Of a DNA stretch of 64,000 bases, positions 1 through 64,000 are shown one piece after another; position 1 is the first letter of the stretch, and each line of letters opens with the position of its first letter. Origin of the DNA: Escherichia coli (GTDB lineage Bacteria > Pseudomonadota > Gammaproteobacteria > Enterobacterales > Enterobacteriaceae); assembly GCF_046105845.1 (NCBI RefSeq), contig NZ_CP151004.1; one strand, given 5' to 3'. The position numbers and the translations under genes are program-made. The notes beneath the pieces are model-generated. The model did not search any database, had not been told where the DNA came from, and was given only the letters and a program-made list of their open reading frames with translations.

Positions 1-574
1 TTCTACCACCAACAACGTCGAACGCCAAAAACAGGCGGCTTTCTCTGACACTATTTTCGTGGTCGGTACGCGCCTGTTGACCAAAAAGGGTGGCGATATC
101 AAAGATTTCGCCGATCTGAAAGGCAAAGCCGTAGTCGTCACTTCCGGCACTACCTCTGAAGTTTTGCTCAACAAACTGAATGAAGAGCAAAAAATGAATA
201 TGCGAATTATCAGCGCCAAAGATCACGGTGACTCTTTCCGCACCCTGGAAAGCGGTCGTGCCGTTGCCTTTATGATGGATGATGCTCTGCTGGCTGGTGA
301 ACGTGCGAAAGCGAAGAAACCAGACAACTGGGAAATCGTCGGCAAGCCGCAGTCTCAGGAAGCCTACGGTTGTATGTTGCGTAAAGACGATCCGCAGTTC
401 AAAAAGCTGATGGATGACACTATCGCTCAGGTGCAGACCTCCGGTGAAGCGGAAAAATGGTTTGATAAATGGTTCAAAAATCCCATTCCGCCGAAAAACC
501 TGAACATGAATTTCGAACTGTCGGACGAAATGAAAGCACTGTTCAAAGAACCGAATGACAAAGCACTGAACTAA
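1..574 (+). CDS. gltI: Glutamate/aspartate ABC transporter periplasmic binding protein, C-terminal part (5' end lies outside window)
   Basis: Open frame from position 2 with no stop; translation ...DTIFVVGTRLLTKKGGDIKDFADLKGK... matches GltI C-terminus; followed by gltJKL. Confidence 0.9.
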   Translation, partial: STTNNVERQKQAAFSDTIFVVGTRLLTKKGGDIKDFADLKGKAVVVTSGTTSEVLLNKLNEEQKMNMRIISAKDHGDSFRTLESGRAVAFMMDDALLAGERAKAKKPDNWEIVGKPQSQEAYGCMLRKDDPQFKKLMDDTIAQVQTSGEAEKWFDKWFKNPIPPKNLNMNFELSDEMKALFKEPNDKALN

Positions 575-730
575 TTACAAGAACCAGGGGCGGAAATTCC
601 AGCCCTCTCGATTGTTACGTAGCACGGACAGACTATACGCCTGATGGTCGTTCCCCATCGGGCCTGAAAACCGCAATACGCTGGGTAACAATCTTCGAGG
701 GTAGCAGTTAACGCTGCTACCCTCTTTTTT
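570..730 (+). ncRNA. sroC: Probable SroC sRNA locus in the gltI-gltJ spacer (ends at intrinsic terminator)
   Basis: Established knowledge that SroC is processed from the gltI-gltJ intergenic part of the gltIJKL mRNA; 169-nt spacer ends in a strong hairpin plus T-tract; exact 5' end not determinable from sequence. Confidence 0.45.
697..730 (+). terminator. Intrinsic terminator/attenuator between gltI and gltJ
   Basis: GAGGGTAGCAG-ttaacg-CTGCTACCCTC stem followed by TTTTTT. Confidence 0.75.
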
Positions 731-743
731 CTGGAGTAGATTT

Positions 744-3980: not shown

Positions 3981-4463
3981 TTAAGGCTCGAACGGGCGTC
4001 TCTGGAACTGGTCATGACCACATTTCGGGCATAGCGTCAGCACTTCCGGTGTATAGATCGGGAGATGGAAATGACATTTCTCGCAGACCAGATTTCCCAG
4101 CCCTACCACTTCTCCGCTGTGATAAACCCCGTGATGATTGAGGTCCTGGAAAACTTCGCGCCATTCAAGCTGCGTTTTATCGGTGATGTCTGCCAGCTCC
4201 TGCCACAAGCTTTCTTTAATCACCCGCATAAAGACGCTGTCAGACTCTTCTTTCAGGCTCTCTTCATAGCTCATGGCGAACTCTTCCAGGTCACGTCTGA
4301 CAGCTCGCGTCAGCTCATCGACTTCGGTTCGCGTTAACTCCCCTGTTTTTATTACGCGCTCGCGCGCCTGTTCCACCAGTGCGTCGATATCACGTTCGCC
4401 ATTGCGCAGGCGTTCGCTCAGTGACGCGACCAGTTCACGGTAATATTGAGCAACCTTGTTCAT
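3981..4463 (-). CDS. ybeL: Uncharacterized DUF1451-type protein with C-terminal CxxC...CxxC zinc-ribbon
   Basis: 160-aa ORF MNKVAQYYRELVASLSERL...; CEKCH...CPKCGH motif. Confidence 0.85.
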   Translation of the reverse strand: MNKVAQYYRELVASLSERLRNGERDIDALVEQARERVIKTGELTRTEVDELTRAVRRDLEEFAMSYEESLKEESDSVFMRVIKESLWQELADITDKTQLEWREVFQDLNHHGVYHSGEVVGLGNLVCEKCHFHLPIYTPEVLTLCPKCGHDQFQRRPFEP

Positions 4464-35292: not shown

Positions 35293-35521
35293 TCCTCTGA
35301 TTTACAAAAGACGCTAATTCGTCTTCCATAAACCATGACGATTAAGATTTATACATAATGCGCTGCATTGAGGAATTCCCTGAATGTGACGCAAATCACT
35401 TCAAAGAGTGAGCAACAGTCAGTATCATCATGTGAGTTAAACCCTCGCCGCCTGACGGTGAGGGTTTTCTTTTGGGTATGTTTATCTGCGACACTCGCAG
35501 TACCGACGACATGGAGTAAAA

Positions 35522-35932
35522 ATGTCCAGACCAACTATCATCATTAACGACCTGGATGCCGAACGCATCGATATTCTGCTGGAGCAACCCGCCTATGCTG
35601 GTTTGCCAATCGCCGACGCGTTAAACGCAGAGTTGGATCGCGCCCAAATGTGTTCGCCAGAAGAGATGCCACACGACGTGGTGACAATGAACAGCCGGGT
35701 TAAATTCCGCAATCTTAGCGATGGCGAAGTGCGTGTGCGCACGCTGGTGTATCCGGCAAAAATGACCGACAGCAATACTCAGCTTTCCGTTATGGCTCCG
35801 GTAGGTGCCGCACTGCTGGGGCTGCGCGTTGGCGATTCCATTCACTGGGAACTTCCGGGCGGCGTTGCAACCCACCTTGAAGTGCTGGAACTCGAATACC
35901 AGCCAGAAGCTGCTGGCGACTACCTGCTTTAA
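35522..35932 (+). CDS. rnk: Regulator of nucleoside diphosphate kinase (GreA/GreB-like)
   Basis: 136-aa [25 protein letters not shown]... Confidence 0.9.
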
Positions 35933-35963
35933 TCCCATCTGCACAAGCGATAACTCGCTTTGC

Positions 35964-35991
35964 CCAGAGGATGCACTCGCATCCTCTTTCC
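35964..35991 (+). terminator. Candidate terminator hairpin after rnk
   Basis: GAGGATGC-actc-GCATCCTC then TTTCC. Confidence 0.5.
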
Positions 35992-36074
35992 GCTCAAATA
36001 TCAACCAGATTTATCATTTTGCTCTTAAGCGCAGCATTCTAATCTGAACTGGTTATTCATCTGCGGAACCTCAT

Positions 36075-36164
36075 ATGAGCGAAGCTCTCGGTATCACTGC
36101 ATTTTATATATTCATAGCCGCAATTATTGTTGCTGCAGTGCTATACCTTGAACAACGCTGGTAG
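36075..36164 (+). CDS. Hypothetical 29-aa single-TM hydrophobic peptide (MSEALGITAFYIFIAAIIVAAVLYLEQRW), unannotated candidate
   Basis: ATG-initiated ORF verified codon by codon; one predicted TM helix; no strong SD, so coding status is uncertain. Confidence 0.25.
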   Translation: MSEALGITAFYIFIAAIIVAAVLYLEQRW

Positions 36165-36287
36165 CGCCTGGTTTTATTTATTTTCCAGCTCAATAGCAAA
36201 TTCAGATCAAATCAGCCTCGCAAATCATAGATTCATAACCAATAATGTGCTGTTATGTATACATGCAAAAACAAGGAGAGAATGCTT

Positions 36288-36716
36288 ATGTACAAAACAA
36301 TCATCATGCCAGTTGATGTATTTGAAATGGAATTGAGCGACAAAGCGGTTCGCCACGCTGAATTCCTCGCCCAGGATGACGGAGTTATTCATCTACTTCA
36401 CGTACTACCGGGGTCAGCCAGCCTGAGCCTGCACCGTTTTGCCGCTGATGTACGTCGTTTTGAAGAGCATCTGCAACATGAAGCAGAAGAACGTTTGCAA
36501 ACGATGGTCAGCCACTTCACCATCGATCCTTCCCGCATTAAACAACATGTCCGTTTTGGTAGCGTGCGGGATGAAGTTAACGAGTTAGCGAAAGAACTTG
36601 ATGCAGATGTAGTAGTGATTGGTTCGCGTAACCCATCAATTTCAACTCATCTGTTGGGTTCTAACGCCTCGAGCGTGATCCGCCACGCCAATTTGCCGGT
36701 GCTGGTTGTGCGTTAA
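36288..36716 (+). CDS. uspG: Universal stress protein G
   Basis: 142 aa from [22 protein letters not shown] 8 nt upstream. Confidence 0.9.
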
Positions 36717-39136: not shown

Positions 39137-39507
39137 CTATACTTCCTCCGTGTTTTCGATGAGATGTAAGGTAACCAATTTTTGCCGATTCGGCTAATGC
39201 GTTTCCATTATCAAATCGATAAGTTTTACCTTACAACCTTCGTAAGACAACTTTGTGAACTTTGCACCGCCAGCGGCGATAAAAAGTAAAATGGCCCCCT
39301 TTCCAGGTGACCGTGTAATCTGAACTACCCTTTGGTATCTTCAGCGCCTGCCTGCAGGCTGAGGTGTTGCCCTTACAAATGCAACAACGACATGGATTAC
39401 AACACCCTCATAAACAAAGGGCAATCACCTGATCTAAGCTCTTACCTATGACAGTGATAGGTTATGCCTTTTACTCGACTTTTGCACTGACTGAAAAGGA
39501 CAAATTA

Positions 39508-48338: not shown

Positions 48339-49500
<1,162 letters not shown>

Positions 49501-49501
<1 letters not shown>

Positions 49502-50361
49502 TATTTCACCTCGCGGGAGAGTAGCTTCCACCAGGCGTCGATGGTCGGGTTTTTCGCCAGCATGACAAAGTCGATATCGCCATGCACTTTGCGCCAGCGC
49601 GCCGCCAGCGCCATCATGCGCACCGAATCCAGACCGTAGTCGATCAGGTTGTCATCATCGAACGGTTCATCGGACTCGTCCAGCAACGGCAGGATCACCT
49701 CACGCAGCGCCGCTTTGCTGGCGGGGATAGGTGCTGCTGGCAGCAATTCTTCGGTCATCACCACCCGGCCAGAACGTCCGGCCACATATTTCAGCGACAT
49801 CAAATGCTCGTCACGGCTGAAATCGGCCAGCGCATCTGCCACCATAAACGGTTTAATATCGCGCATAAATGCGTCCGTTGCGGTGGTCATACAGCCAATG
49901 TGGGCATATACCCCGGTAATAATCAGCTGGTTACGTCCACTCTCTTTGAGCATTTGCTCCAGCGGGGAACGATGAAACGCGCTGTAGCGCCACTTCACCA
50001 GCACCGTGTCGTCGGCATCTGGCGTCAGGCGATCCACCACCTTTTGCTGTTCCGGCGAACGGGTCAGGCCTGGCCCCCACATATCATTCAACAGCGCCCG
50101 ATCTTCATCGCTCTGCTCTTTCGGCTGGGCGGTGTAATAAACCGGGATATTGTGCTGTTTGCAGTAGTCGCGTAGTGCCGCAATATTCGCGATCACCTGC
50201 TCCATCATCGGGCAGTTCTCGCCCCAGAAGCTGACAAAATAGTCCTGCATATCATGGATTAACAACGCGGCATGTTGCGGTTCAAAGGCCCAGTCGACTT
50301 TATTCTGCGGAATATCGTGAGACTCCGGCAGTGCGTAAGCCTGTAATTTTGGAATAGCCAT
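49501..50361 (-). CDS. entB: Isochorismatase / aryl carrier protein EntB
   Basis: ORF MAIPKLQAYALPESHDIPQNK...; C-terminal carrier domain with LGLDSV phosphopantetheine site. Confidence 0.95.
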
Positions 50362-59764: not shown

Positions 59765-59816
59765 ATAAATTAAATAAATGATAAACCCATAATCATTTCC
59801 AGTAATTATGGGTTTA
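59765..59816 (-). terminator. Intrinsic terminator after entF
   Basis: Minus-strand hairpin AAACCCATAAT...ATTATGGGTTT followed by T-rich ATCATTTATTTAATTT. Confidence 0.55.
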
Positions 59817-59830
59817 TGGATAATATTAAT

Positions 59831-62800
59831 TTACCTGTTTAGCGTAGCGCGAATAATCGGCCCAATTTTTTCAAACGCCACCGGAGAGATAATATCCACA
59901 TGCGCACAATCCTGACGATAGATATCCAGCTCAGCAATCCACGGTGCCCAGGCCTGTTCAGGACTCATACCTTCCTGAAGCGTGCGTTCGGCAACAAATA
60001 GCGTCGCTTTACCATCAAACGGTACGCTATGAGCTGTCGTCAGCAGGCGCACAGCATCAGCGTAGTTGCCTTCAATGGTGGTAAACAACTCCGTTGAAGT
60101 ACTTCCCTGCTGTGCCGCCAGGAAGGCTTCGCGCTCGCGGTTAATCTCCGCCAGCACTTCCGGGTCCAGACCATTGGCTTCTTTTTCCTGCCAGTTTTGC
60201 GTTTCTGGCGGCCAGGTATCCAGCAAGCCAAGAAATGCCACCTGTTCGCCACGGGCACGCAGCCGCGCCGCAATACCCTGCGCCAGCGTACCGCCCAGCG
60301 AATAACCCAGCAGGTAATAAGGGCCGTGCGGTTGATGCTCAAGTAACGTTGCCAGATGCGCTTCGCAGACTTCATCCAGATTTGCCGCGGTCTGCATGGG
60401 GCCATTGGGGCGCGGCGACTGAATGCCGATAATCGACCATTGTGGATCGAGATAACGCGAGAGCACGCTGAACTGCCAGGCAAAACCGGACGCAGGATGG
60501 AAACAAAACAGCGTCGGGCCATTACCTTCACGCAACGGCAGAATGGTTTCGAATCCCATGCGCTGGGTGCTGTCTTCTTCACCATCAATAATCGTTGCCA
60601 GTTTGGCGACGGTTGATGCGACCATCACCTGCCCCGGCGTCACCTGACGGGCAAAGTGTCGACTTAACTGCGCTGCCAGTTTCATTGCCAGTAGCGAATG
60701 ACCGCCAAGCGCGAAGAAATCAGCATCGGCATCCTGCACGTCACAACCCAGCAACGACGAGAATGCCGCGGCGATAATCGTTTCACTGCCCGCTTTCGGC
60801 GCACGCCCCGGCGCTTGTGCCTTCAGTTCAGGCAACGGTAAGGCTTTGCGATCCAGCTTGCCGTTGGCGCTAAGCGGCAACTGCGGAAGTTGCAGCAGAA
60901 CCACGGGCACCATATGCGGTGGCAATGTTTCGCGCAACTGCGCCTGCAATGCGCTGGTATCCAACGGCAGGCCCGATTGCGACACCAGATAGCCCACCAA
61001 CTGACGCGCATCGCCTCCCGTTGCGGCAGCCTGGTTAATGACGCAGGCGTGGGTCACGGCTTGTTCGACATCCGGCAGCGCCTGCATCACGCGATCGATT
61101 TCGCCCAGTTCGATACGCTGCCCGCGAATTTTTAGCTGATCGTCACTGCGCCCGAGGTACTCCACCGCGCCGTTATCCAGCCAGCGGGCAACGTCTCCGG
61201 TACGGTACATCCGTTCACCAGGGGCAAAAGGATCGGCAATAAAGCGGCTGGCGGTCAGATCGGGTCGTCCAAGATACCCCTGCGCCAGTTGTATGCCAGT
61301 GAGATAGAGATCTCCCGCCACACCCGGCGGCACCGGATGCATCATCGCATCAAGAATACGCAGGCCCGTATTCCACACCGGATAACCAATCGGCACACTG
61401 CTGCCGCGCACCTGTGCCAGTTCCTCGCCAAAAGCCGGATACCAGCTGACATCTACCGCCGCTTCCGTCGGGCCATATAGATTATGCAACGGCACGCTGG
61501 TTAACTGTTGCCATTCGCGGCATAAATCAGCGGGTAAGGCCTCACCACTACAGAAAACCTGTTTCAACGTCGCGCAATTCTGGCGAGCGGTTTGCGGAGT
61601 CAGCGATGCAACAAAAGCTGCCAGCATCGACGGCACAAAGTGCGTGGTCGTTACGCCATATTCGGCAAAGAATTGCTGCATAGCGAGCGGGTCGCGGTGC
61701 GCTTCCGGTTCAGCCATCACCAGTTTAGCCCCGGCAATAAACGGCCAGAAAAACTCCCACACCGAGACATCAAAACTGCACGGCGTTTTTTGGGCAACGA
61801 CATCTTCGCCTGTAAGCGGGTAGTGGTTTTGCATCCAAAGCAGGCGGTTAACGATAGCCGTCTGCCCGACCATTACCCCTTTCGGCCTGCCGGTAGAGCC
61901 AGAGGTAAAGATGATATAAGCCGTGTGGTGCGGTTGTGAAAGTTTCAGCGGCGCACTGCCCTGCGGTGTAAGCGGGGCGTTATAGCAAAGGCGGGTTAAA
62001 TCTGGAACATCGGCAAAGCGCGGCAGTTGATCGTCGGTGGTGATTAACAGCGACGGACGCGCATCTTCCAGCATCATTTTCAGGCGATCGTCCGGATAGC
62101 CGGTATCCAGCGGTAACCAGGCCGCACCAGCCTCAACAATTGCATGTAGCGCCAGAGTCAAAAAGACCGAGCGCGGTAGCGCCACCGCCACGCTGTCGCC
62201 TGGTTTAACGCCGCGCTCACGCAGCAGATTCGCCAGCGCCACCACCTGCTCGCGCATTTCCCGATAGCTAAACTGGTAACTCGCATCAACCAGCGCCGGA
62301 GCATGCGGTGTTTTTGCCGCCTGTTCCGCCACCAGCGCGCTCAGCGTGGTTTCTGGAATCTCAACCTGAGTGGCGTTGATCTGCGCCAGCTGCACATATT
62401 CACCTGGCAGCATAATATCGACATCGCCGCACAACAGCGCCGGATCCGCGGCGAACTGGGCAATCAGCATTTTCAGGCGTTCAGCGTGTTGAATTAACGT
62501 TGGCTCATCGTAACGCTGTTTATTGGCGAGGATCTCAATACTCAAATCACCGTGTTCATCCGGGAACAGTGCCAGTTCAAGGTCATTAACCGGACCGGTT
62601 GCCAGGGTATGGGTTTGCGCCTGAACACCAGGAATATCCAGTTGGTAATCAAATACCTTGATATTGAGTACCGGACCAAACAGCGGTTCATCACCTGCCG
62701 CTCGCCCGCTGTCACGGACAATTTGTTCGGCATCGTAACGTTGATGACGACGCATTTTTTTCAGTTGTGCTGCCAGTCGGGTTGCCAGTTGCGGCAGCGT

Positions 62801-63712
62801 TTCTTGCGCCTCAATATGAATACCCAACGGCAAAACGTTGAGCACGGGTCCGGTAGCCGTCAGCGCCGCCGAGCCCAGTCGACGCATAAAGATAAATCCG
62901 GCGGCGTAGTCCATGCGATTGCACAATCGCCCCAGCCATAAGGCCACCAGCGCAAGGGCTAAATCGGTACGCTGCACACCTGAAAGTTGCGTAGCCAGCT
63001 GGCGGAATTCCCCGTCAGTAAATTCCAGTTTCAGGCGAAGAATATCTGCCGAAGCGCTGCGCCCCGGTAAAGGTGCCGGAGAAAGTGACGCGGGCGGCGG
63101 CAATTGACGACGCTGTTCCGCCCAGAATGCCGCATCACGCTGCCAGGCTTCGCTTTCGCGGTATTGCTGGTACTCTTCCACTACATCAGCGAAAGGCGTA
63201 AACGGCGAAGCAGGCGTTGGTTCGCCACGCAGCCATGCGCAGTAAATATTGGCGATCTGGCGGGTAATGGCCGGGAAACTGAAGCCATCGACCAGCAAAT
63301 GGTGATAACGCTGATACCAGTACCAGCGGTTATCCGCCACCTGTATCAACTGATGAAAGACCAGTGGTTTACCGCTATCGACGCGCAGATCTTGTTGCAA
63401 ATCCGCCTGCATTAATGCCCGCGCAGTACCGTGCGGATCAATGTTGGTTCGCAGGTCGATAATTTCTGGCAGTTCGAACGTCAGCGCATCATCGACCCAC
63501 TGCCAGACTTCGCCGTTATCTTCCGTAAAACGCATCCGCAGCGTATCTGCTTGCGCTAATCCGGCAACCACCGCGCGGGCCAGTAATGGCGCATCAACCT
63601 CTCCGGTTAACTCAACGTAATGCGCCACGCTCCAGGCGGAGGGTAAATCCGACAGTTTTTCTGCCATCCAGATGCCGGGCTGTGCGGCGACCAAAGGTAA
63701 ATGCTGGCTCAT
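59831..63712 (-). CDS. entF: Enterobactin non-ribosomal peptide synthetase (C-A-PCP-TE, serine-activating)
   Basis: 1293 aa from MSQHLPLVAAQPGIWMAEKL; LGGHSL carrier motif, GYSLGG thioesterase motif; ORF-track start at 63850 rejected. Confidence 0.95.
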   Translation of the reverse strand: MSQHLPLVAAQPGIWMAEKLSDLPSAWSVAHYVELTGEVDAPLLARAVVAGLAQADTLRMRFTEDNGEVWQWVDDALTFELPEIIDLRTNIDPHGTARALMQADLQQDLRVDSGKPLVFHQLIQVADNRWYWYQRYHHLLVDGFSFPAITRQIANIYCAWLRGEPTPASPFTPFADVVEEYQQYRESEAWQRDAAFWAEQRRQLPPPASLSPAPLPGRSASADILRLKLEFTDGEFRQLATQLSGVQRTDLALALVALWLGRLCNRMDYAAGFIFMRRLGSAALTATGPVLNVLPLGIHIEAQETLPQLATRLAAQLKKMRRHQRYDAEQIVRDSGRAAGDEPLFGPVLNIKVFDYQLDIPGVQAQTHTLATGPVNDLELALFPDEHGDLSIEILANKQRYDEPTLIQHAERLKMLIAQFAADPALLCGDVDIMLPGEYVQLAQINATQVEIPETTLSALVAEQAAKTPHAPALVDASYQFSYREMREQVVALANLLRERGVKPGDSVAVALPRSVFLTLALHAIVEAGAAWLPLDTGYPDDRLKMMLEDARPSLLITTDDQLPRFADVPDLTRLCYNAPLTPQGSAPLKLSQPHHTAYIIFTSGSTGRPKGVMVGQTAIVNRLLWMQNHYPLTGEDVVAQKTPCSFDVSVWEFFWPFIAGAKLVMAEPEAHRDPLAMQQFFAEYGVTTTHFVPSMLAAFVASLTPQTARQNCATLKQVFCSGEALPADLCREWQQLTSVPLHNLYGPTEAAVDVSWYPAFGEELAQVRGSSVPIGYPVWNTGLRILDAMMHPVPPGVAGDLYLTGIQLAQGYLGRPDLTASRFIADPFAPGERMYRTGDVARWLDNGAVEYLGRSDDQLKIRGQRIELGEIDRVMQALPDVEQAVTHACVINQAAATGGDARQLVGYLVSQSGLPLDTSALQAQLRETLPPHMVPVVLLQLPQLPLSANGKLDRKALPLPELKAQAPGRAPKAGSETIIAAAFSSLLGCDVQDADADFFALGGHSLLAMKLAAQLSRHFARQVTPGQVMVASTVAKLATIIDGEEDSTQRMGFETILPLREGNGPTLFCFHPASGFAWQFSVLSRYLDPQWSIIGIQSPRPNGPMQTAANLDEVCEAHLATLLEHQPHGPYYLLGYSLGGTLAQGIAARLRARGEQVAFLGLLDTWPPETQNWQEKEANGLDPEVLAEINREREAFLAAQQGSTSTELFTTIEGNYADAVRLLTTAHSVPFDGKATLFVAERTLQEGMSPEQAWAPWIAELDIYRQDCAHVDIISPVAFEKIGPIIRATLNR

Positions 63713-63927
63713 TGCACCTCCTGCAACTGGGTGAAATTCGACGGTGTCAGAGTACGCCAGTGGGCTTCCAGCCACTGCTGGCAGGACGCCTGTGACTGCG
63801 GCTGACACACAACGTCCCAGCCTGCCGGTAAGGCGCATTGTTGCGGCCACAGACTGAATTGCCCCTGCGCATTGCGCAAAATGTAAAACGCTCCCTGCGG
63901 ATCATCGAAGGGATTACTGAATGCCAT
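63709..63927 (-). CDS. ybdZ: MbtH-like protein (NRPS adenylation-domain partner)
   Basis: 72 aa MAFSNPFDDPQGAFYILRNAQGQFSLWP...; ATGA overlap with entF start. Confidence 0.9.
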   Translation of the reverse strand: MAFSNPFDDPQGAFYILRNAQGQFSLWPQQCALPAGWDVVCQPQSQASCQQWLEAHWRTLTPSNFTQLQEVQ

Positions 63928-63929
63928 AT

Positions 63930-64000
63930 TCAACTCCTGTCATGGAAAAGTGGTTGCCAGAGGTCGATTAGCCCCTGCATCAAGCCACCGCGCCAACAAA
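63930..64000 (-). CDS. fes: Enterobactin esterase Fes, C-terminal end only (rest outside window)
   Basis: Minus-strand frame ends ...GGLMQGLIDLWQPLFHDRS-stop at 63932-63930, immediately before the ybdZ start. Confidence 0.7.
   Translation of the reverse strand, partial: CWRGGLMQGLIDLWQPLFHDRS

What the first reader, a model, noticed from the sequence alone, without database searches (positions are those of the whole stretch)
63709..63932. Tightly coupled fes-ybdZ-entF and entB-entA junctions
Seen in sequence: the fes stop (TGA 63932-63930) lies 2 nt before the ybdZ ATG, the ybdZ stop overlaps the entF ATG (ATGA), and the entB stop overlaps the entA ATG by 1 nt (49501). This fits stoichiometric co-translation of the MbtH-like protein with its NRPS partner. 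The ORF-track N-terminal extensions (entF from 63850, ybdZ from 63933) are not supported.
Basis: partly seen in the sequence, partly recalled or inferred. Interest (0 to 1): 0.15.

Follow-up and report, generated by a model that had tools for sequence, protein, structure and literature searches.

The report
Ordinary tight enterobactin operon gene junctions
The stop and start codons of neighbouring enterobactin genes (fes-ybdZ-entF and entB-entA) in this E. coli window touch or overlap exactly as described, but this is the commonest junction type in E. coli operons and is already annotated, so the finding is correct and ordinary.

Summary
The window is E. coli chromosome and the genes lie on the minus strand. 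Every coordinate in the finding checks out.

- fes stop TGA is at 63932-63930. A 2-nt spacer follows, then the ybdZ ATG at 63927.
- ybdZ stop TGA (63711-63709) overlaps the entF ATG (63712-63710) as ATGA.
- entB stop TAA (49503-49501) overlaps the entA ATG (49501-49499).

RefSeq annotates the same geometry. The junctions are not unusual. In this window 15 of 45 same-strand gene pairs are at least as tight, and published counts put 24% of E. coli unidirectional pairs at -8 to +6 nt.

Across 39 Enterobacteriaceae species the ybdZ-entF distance is always between -8 and +10 nt. The entB-entA 1-nt overlap is kept in five other Enterobacterales. The fes-ybdZ +2 spacing is specific to Escherichia; other genera have +10 to +30.

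The longer ORF-track starts are refuted. E. albertii has an in-frame stop in the entF extension, variation follows the ybdZ frame, and the Shine-Dalgarno sites sit before the annotated ATGs.

Coupling by termination-reinitiation is likely but untested. "Stoichiometric co-translation" remains an inference, and MbtH genes elsewhere are placed variably. Verdict: already known, low interest.

The parts
63930..64000 (-). 3' end of fes (enterochelin esterase), cut by the window edge; stop TGA at 63932-63930
   Evidence: Translation gives ...GLIDLWQPLFHDRS*. It is 100% identical to residues 379-400 of Fes from strain A22. RefSeq annotates fes here.
63934..63938 (-). Shine-Dalgarno AGGAG for ybdZ, inside the last fes codons, 6 nt before the ATG
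   Evidence: Sequence read. Duplex with the 16S 3' end is -6.9 kcal/mol with spacing 5. The same AGGAG abuts the alternative TTG at 63933, leaving spacing 0.
63709..63927 (-). ybdZ, a 72-aa MbtH-like protein; ATG 63927-63925, stop TGA 63711-63709
   Evidence: Pfam MbtH PF03621, 77.1 bits against a cut-off of 27. PDB 5JA1 chain B (YbdZ) matches at E=2e-46. RefSeq annotates ybdZ.
63715..63722 (-). Shine-Dalgarno AGGAGGTG for entF, inside the last ybdZ codons, 2 nt before the ATG
   Evidence: Duplex energy is -11.6 kcal/mol. A purine-rich GGAG-like motif sits before the entF start in most of the 39 loci (alignment A1).
59831..63712 (-). entF, a 1293-aa NRPS termination module (C-A-PCP-TE); ATG 63712-63710 overlaps the ybdZ stop as ATGA
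   Evidence: Pfam finds Condensation (residues 2-442), AMP-binding, PP-binding and Thioesterase domains. In 39 species the start lies 2-4 codons before the conserved PLVAAQPGIWMAE motif.
49501..50361 (-). entB, 286 aa, isochorismatase plus aryl carrier domain; stop TAA 49503-49501
   Evidence: Pfam finds Isochorismatase and PP-binding domains. It is 100% identical to EntB of strain A22.
49507..49512 (-). Shine-Dalgarno GAGGTG for entA, inside the last entB codons, 5 nt before the ATG
   Evidence: Duplex energy is -7.2 kcal/mol with spacing 5. The GAGGTG is conserved in Klebsiella and Enterobacter.
48755..49501 (-). entA, a 248-aa short-chain dehydrogenase; ATG 49501-49499 shares A49501 with the entB stop (TAATG)
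   Evidence: Pfam adh_short_C2. RefSeq annotates entB 15340-16200 and entA 16200-16946 in strain A22.

Best explanation
These are normal intra-operon junctions of the well-known E. coli enterobactin genes. fes-ybdZ-entF(-fepE) and entC-E-B-A-H are each read from one iron-regulated mRNA; this comes from the literature and was not tested here. Each downstream gene starts at the annotated ATG, and a Shine-Dalgarno site embedded in the last codons of the upstream gene precedes it. Because the stop and start codons overlap or nearly touch, a ribosome finishing the upstream gene can restart on the downstream one (termination-reinitiation). This links the output of YbdZ to that of its partner EntF, and of EntB to EntA. 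Free ribosomes can also load at the strong Shine-Dalgarno sites. Shown here: gene identities, geometry, start sites, conservation, and the absence of a sequestering RNA structure. Inferred: that coupling occurs and that it sets a 1:1 ratio.
For: - Geometry was read directly and matches RefSeq annotation.
- Domain identities are confirmed, and the YbdZ-EntF complex is solved.
- ybdZ-entF distances in 39 Enterobacteriaceae loci: -4 nt in 23, -8 in 7, +1 in 1, +9 or +10 in 8. None is longer.
- entB-entA is -1 nt in Klebsiella pneumoniae, K. aerogenes, Enterobacter hormaechei, Enterobacteriaceae sp. Kacie_13 and Serratia, even though the EntA N-terminus differs in length. It is -4 in Azospirillum.
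- Shine-Dalgarno sites are well placed before the annotated ATGs, and are absent or misplaced before the alternative starts.
- No promoter-like or terminator-like site lies in 63400-64000.
- Published experiments: 4 of 5 native E. coli pairs with a -4 overlap are translationally coupled (PMC6728339). Coupling collapses by about 20 nt, and short distances are enriched 4.5-fold for complex subunits (PMC10666635).
- The fes-ybdZ-entF-fepE operon is named in the literature. [quoted passage not shown]
Against: - No direct measurement of coupling or of YbdZ:EntF synthesis rates could be found. A Ribo-seq supplement had no entries for these genes, and no start-site profiling paper mentions ybdZ.
- entF has a very strong Shine-Dalgarno site of its own, so de novo initiation may dominate. 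One native -4 pair, bioBF, showed no coupling.
- The fes-ybdZ spacing is +10 to +30 nt outside Escherichia, so coupling to fes is not a conserved requirement.
- I know of no stable EntB-EntA complex, so stoichiometry is not an obvious reason for that overlap.
Confidence: 0.8

Rival explanations
1. The tight junctions are a neutral by-product of operon compaction. Each gene is initiated independently at its own Shine-Dalgarno site, and the overlaps have no role in setting protein ratios.
For: - Strong Shine-Dalgarno sites precede all three starts.
- A third of same-strand pairs in this window are equally tight.
- fes-ybdZ spacing drifts from +2 to +30 nt among genera.
- ybdZ-entF switches among -8, -4, +1 and +10 nt.
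- MbtH-like genes elsewhere are upstream of, downstream of, or away from their NRPS.
- bioBF is a -4 pair without coupling.
Against: - ybdZ-entF never exceeds +10 nt in 39 species.
- The entB-entA 1-nt overlap persists while the EntA N-terminus changes length.
- Four of five native -4 pairs tested in E. coli were coupled.
Confidence: 0.2
2. EntF, YbdZ or EntA really starts at the upstream in-frame codon given by the ORF track (GTG 63850, TTG 63933, GTG 49531), producing N-terminally extended proteins.
For: - The frames are open in this window.
- GTG 63850 has a weak AGGGG 10 nt upstream (-5.7 kcal/mol).
Against: - E. albertii has a stop inside the 46-codon extension, and many genera have a stop 1-15 codons before the ATG.
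- Of 45 Escherichia variants in the extension, 25 fall on ybdZ codon position 3. Thirty-five would change the extension protein, against 21 that change YbdZ.
- The Pfam Condensation domain starts at residue 2 of the ATG-start protein.
- TTG 63933 has zero spacing to its Shine-Dalgarno site, and GTG 49531 has none.
- RefSeq uses the ATGs.
Confidence: 0.02
3. Coupling works by RNA unfolding. A structure hides the downstream ribosome-binding site until a ribosome translating the upstream gene opens it.
For: This is a classical mechanism of translational coupling (review PMC12548453). The minimum-energy fold pairs part of the entF Shine-Dalgarno site.
Against: - The folds of all three junctions are no more stable than shuffled sequence (z = -0.07, +0.94, +0.81).
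- The consensus fold of 20 genera leaves the entF start region unpaired, with a covariation term of -0.05.
Confidence: 0.05

Closest known systems
E. coli K-12 fes-ybdZ-entF-fepE and entCEBAH operons
   Same: Same genes, order, strand relations and junction geometry. RefSeq annotation of 5,400 E. coli genomes places fes, ybdZ and entF here.
   Different: Only allelic differences. YbdZ here has V71 (GTG), which lengthens the entF Shine-Dalgarno site to AGGAGGTG. EntB has one extra Ala in its linker; the comparison with K-12 is from memory.
Termination-reinitiation gene pairs with -4 or -1 nt overlaps (Huber et al. 2019, 2023: hyfHI, astDB, menDH and others)
   Same: Same strand, ATGA or TAATG overlap, and a Shine-Dalgarno site inside the upstream gene. 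ybdZ-entF also encodes a heteromeric complex, the class in which such overlaps are enriched.
   Different: Coupling has not been measured for these pairs, and fes-ybdZ is a +2 spacer rather than an overlap.
MbtH-like domains fused to their NRPS (SlgN1, PDB 4GR4; ObiF1, PDB 6N8E)
   Same: The same protein-protein partnership between an MbtH-like protein and an adenylation domain.
   Different: There a gene fusion fixes the 1:1 ratio. Here the two are separate cistrons in different frames, and ybdZ contains no slippery heptamer that could fuse them.

Membership tests
MbtH-like protein (Pfam PF03621) | Match to the family profile above the curated cut-off | tested here: met
   77.1 bits against a cut-off of 27, covering residues 4-54.
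MbtH-like protein (Pfam PF03621) | Signature residues: NPFDD, SxWP, PxGW and a third conserved Trp | tested here: met
   NPFDD (5-9), SLWP (25-28), PAGW (34-37) and W57 were read in the translation. The WTDxRP motif is WRTLTP here, a deviation already noted for YbdZ.
MbtH-like protein (Pfam PF03621) | Binds an NRPS adenylation domain 1:1 | not testable with these tools
   A near-identical YbdZ is solved in complex with EntF (5JA1). 1:1 stoichiometry is cited.
NRPS termination module (EntF) | Domain order C-A-PCP-TE | tested here: met
   Condensation 2-442, AMP-binding 462-814, PP-binding 980-1040, Thioesterase 1067-1280.
Termination-reinitiation coupled gene pair | Same strand, with a stop-start distance of -8 to +10 nt | tested here: met
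   +2 for fes-ybdZ, -4 for ybdZ-entF and -1 for entB-entA.
Termination-reinitiation coupled gene pair | Both genes lie on one transcript | tested here: inconclusive
   No promoter-like or terminator-like site lies in the junction, and the operon is named in the literature. No transcript data were examined.
Termination-reinitiation coupled gene pair | Downstream translation depends on upstream translation | not testable with these tools
   This needs a reporter assay with premature stop codons.
RNA-unfolding type translational coupling | A stable, conserved structure hides the downstream ribosome-binding site | tested here: not met
   z-scores are -0.07, +0.94 and +0.81. No consensus pairing appears at the entF start.
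Programmed -1 frameshift fusion | A slippery X XXY YYZ heptamer in the upstream frame | tested here: not met
   None was found in ybdZ.

The most novel reading that the evidence does not exclude
The conserved gene order (ybdZ first, entF immediately after, never more than 10 nt apart) could promote assembly in cis. On this reading, freshly made YbdZ would bind the nascent EntF adenylation domain emerging from the same mRNA. The junction would then act as a chaperone-delivery device and not only as a ratio-setting device.
Probability: 0.15. Interest if true: 0.3.

Novelty: already known. Interest (0 to 1): 0.05.

Why it matters
It matters little. The result confirms that the standard annotation of the ybdZ, entF and entA start sites is right, and that automatic longest-ORF calls over-extend these genes. 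The cross-genus survey adds one small point. The YbdZ-EntF junction is kept tight throughout the Enterobacteriaceae, while the fes-ybdZ junction is not. That fits selection on co-production of the two binding partners, not on the whole operon.

Tried and rejected
- **Key papers not held.** I tried to read Pettis and McIntosh 1987, Felnagle 2010, Schomer and Thomas 2017, and Miller 2016. Their content is cited only through titles or through other papers.
- **Ribosome-profiling data.** I found no values for ybdZ, entF or fes in the supplement of an E. coli acid-stress Ribo-seq paper. No start-site profiling paper mentioned ybdZ.
- **Sequestering RNA structure.** None was found at any of the three junctions.
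- **Frameshift fusion of YbdZ to EntF.** ybdZ contains no slippery site.
- **Internal promoter or terminator at the junction.** None was found.
- **Poor annotation.** The K. aerogenes ybdZ locus was set aside because its annotation is fragmented by frameshifts.

Full report
**Source and observation.** The window is E. coli chromosome. The 701 bases around the finding match 5,414 of 5,426 complete E. coli genomes, best at 99.7% to strain 118UI. The entB/entA region is 100% identical to strain A22. The enterobactin genes lie on the minus strand.

Direct reading and translation confirm every coordinate in the finding:
- fes ends ...LWQPLFHDRS with TGA at 63932-63930.
- After the 2-nt spacer AT, ybdZ starts at ATG 63927 and encodes 72 aa. 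Its TGA is at 63711-63709.
- entF starts at ATG 63712-63710, so the two genes share ATGA. It encodes 1293 aa.
- entB ends with TAA at 49503-49501, and entA starts at ATG 49501-49499 (TAATG).

RefSeq annotation of strains 118UI and A22 gives the same +2, -4 and -1 distances. Only the last 22 codons of fes lie inside the window. They are identical to Fes residues 379-400 of strain A22.

**Identity of the parts.** YbdZ matches Pfam MbtH (77.1 bits) and the YbdZ chain of PDB 5JA1 (E=2e-46), the solved EntF-YbdZ complex. EntF has the C-A-PCP-TE domain order, and its Condensation domain begins at residue 2. EntB is an isochorismatase with a carrier domain, and EntA is a short-chain dehydrogenase.

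**Is it more than chance?** No. I mapped all genes of strain A22 onto the window. Of 45 same-strand adjacent pairs, 15 are at +2 nt or closer. These include gltJ/K, gltK/L and lptE/holA at -1, and citD/E, fepD/G and fepG/C at -4. Huber et al. 2023 report 707 of 2,987 unidirectional E. coli pairs at -8 to +6 nt, with -4 the commonest value.

**Start sites.** A Shine-Dalgarno site precedes each annotated ATG:

| Start | Motif | Duplex energy (kcal/mol) | Spacing (nt) |
|---|---|---|---|
| ybdZ ATG 63927 | AGGAG | -6.9 | 5 |
| entF ATG 63712 | AGGAGGTG | -11.6 | 2 |
| entA ATG 49501 | GAGGTG | -7.2 | 5 |
| ybdZ TTG 63933 (alternative) | same AGGAG | -6.2 | 0 |
| entA GTG 49531 (alternative) | none | +0.4 | - |
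| entF GTG 63850 (alternative) | weak AGGGG | -5.7 | 10 |

Comparative data settle the entF case:
- In 39 Enterobacteriaceae loci the entF start always lies 2-4 codons before the conserved PLVAAQPGIWMAE motif.
- The open stretch upstream of that start ranges from 1 to 92 codons.
- E. albertii has a stop inside the 46-codon extension.
- Of 45 Escherichia variants in that stretch, 25 fall on ybdZ codon position 3. Thirty-five would change the extension protein, against 21 that change YbdZ.

**Conservation of the geometry.** One scan of species-representative genomes returned 41 loci, of which 39 were usable.
- fes-ybdZ is +2 nt in all five Escherichia loci and +10 to +30 nt in every other genus.
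- ybdZ-entF is -4 in 23 loci, -8 in 7, +1 in 1, and +9 or +10 in 8. It is never longer.
- For entB-entA I used chromosome-sized records held in the plasmid collection. Klebsiella pneumoniae, K. aerogenes, Enterobacter hormaechei, Enterobacteriaceae sp. Kacie_13 and Serratia proteamaculans all have a 1-nt overlap (TAATG or TGATG), although the EntA N-terminus varies in length. Azospirillum has ATGA.
- Within E. coli, the 61-mer across fes/ybdZ is identical in 5,308 of 5,413 genomes.

**Mechanism.** No promoter-like or terminator-like site lies in the junction. The fes-ybdZ-entF-fepE operon is named in the literature.

The three junctions fold no better than shuffled sequence (z = -0.07, +0.94, +0.81). 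An alignment of 20 genera shows no conserved pairing at the entF start. An RNA-unfolding mechanism is therefore unsupported.

The most likely mechanism is termination-reinitiation helped by the embedded Shine-Dalgarno sites. It was shown for 4 of 5 native E. coli pairs with a -4 overlap, and it is lost by about 20 nt of spacing. This step is inferred here, not shown. The strong Shine-Dalgarno sites also allow independent initiation.

**The stoichiometry idea.**
- For: YbdZ and EntF form a 1:1 complex. Short distances are enriched 4.5-fold for complex subunits in E. coli. The ybdZ-entF junction is the one that stays tight across genera.
- Against it as a specific explanation: the same geometry joins many pairs with no known complex, and I know of no stable EntB-EntA complex. 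fes-ybdZ is tight only in Escherichia.
- In nine other MbtH-like gene contexts the arrangement varies. MbtH-to-NRPS distances are +32, +40 and +147 nt. NRPS-to-MbtH distances are -4, -4 and +67 nt. The remaining cases are not adjacent to an NRPS.
- Non-cognate MbtH-like proteins can substitute for YbdZ.
- No synthesis-rate or start-site data for these genes could be found.

**Verdict.** The feature is an ordinary operon junction that is already annotated, and its interest is low.

Noticed in passing
window 59781-59817 (- strand): A 15-bp AT-rich hairpin followed by a T-run lies just after the entF stop, in the 215-nt entF-fepE gap. It could be a partial terminator inside the fes-ybdZ-entF-fepE operon. 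In one study fepE mRNA changed less than entF mRNA.
   Followed up: no
window 63715-63717 (YbdZ codon 71): YbdZ has Val71 (GTG) where strains 118UI and A22 have Ala. This lengthens the entF Shine-Dalgarno site to AGGAGGTG. Only 11 of 5,382 E. coli genomes match this 61-mer at 99% or better. Escherichia sp. E1V33 and E. albertii carry the same GTG.
   Followed up: partly
window 40464-63927, compared with strain A22: Protein identity to strain A22 is mosaic. cstA, entH, entA, entB and entS are 100% identical. entF is 97.4%, fepE 93.4% and citR 88.3%. Only 2 of 5,418 genomes reach 99% at entB/entA. This suggests recombination patches.
   Followed up: no
window 49501-50361: EntB is 286 aa, with LLPAAPIPAS in the linker between the isochorismatase and carrier domains. 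From memory, K-12 EntB is 285 aa with one Ala fewer at this point.
   Followed up: no
L045 (E. coli bR_120_Kylling, NZ_CP182374.1) 4065-4067: A natural deletion removes the fes stop, all of ybdZ and about the first 650 nt of entF. RefSeq marks both remnants as pseudogenes.
   Followed up: partly
L046 (K. pneumoniae CP125156.1) 1492-1501: The record annotates entA from a CTG 8 nt after the entB stop. The sequence has the overlapping TAATG start that is used in K. aerogenes. This looks like an annotation inconsistency.
   Followed up: yes
window 570-732 (+), 35368-35476 (+), 21939-22297 (-), 39281-39374 (-): Four Rfam matches reach their gathering scores: the sroC sRNA after gltI, the rnk leader, a cspA-type thermoregulator on the cspE 5' region, and a marginal STnc70 hit (44.1 bits against 40) between ahpC and dsbG.
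   Followed up: no
window 35932-36288: Only the small gene yldA lies between rnk and uspG, in this window and in strain A22. From memory, K-12 has ybdR in this neighbourhood.
   Followed up: no
window 18106-19059: The ybeF-like ORF is intact here (317 aa). In strain A22 it is annotated as a frameshifted partial pseudogene.
   Followed up: no
L008 and L029: A 223-nt scaffold labelled Lactobacillus johnsonii ATCC 33200 encodes a 92% match to YbdZ. A contig labelled Chryseobacterium sp. 18061 carries an enterobacterial ybdZ-entF locus. Both are probably contaminated or mislabelled assemblies.
   Followed up: no
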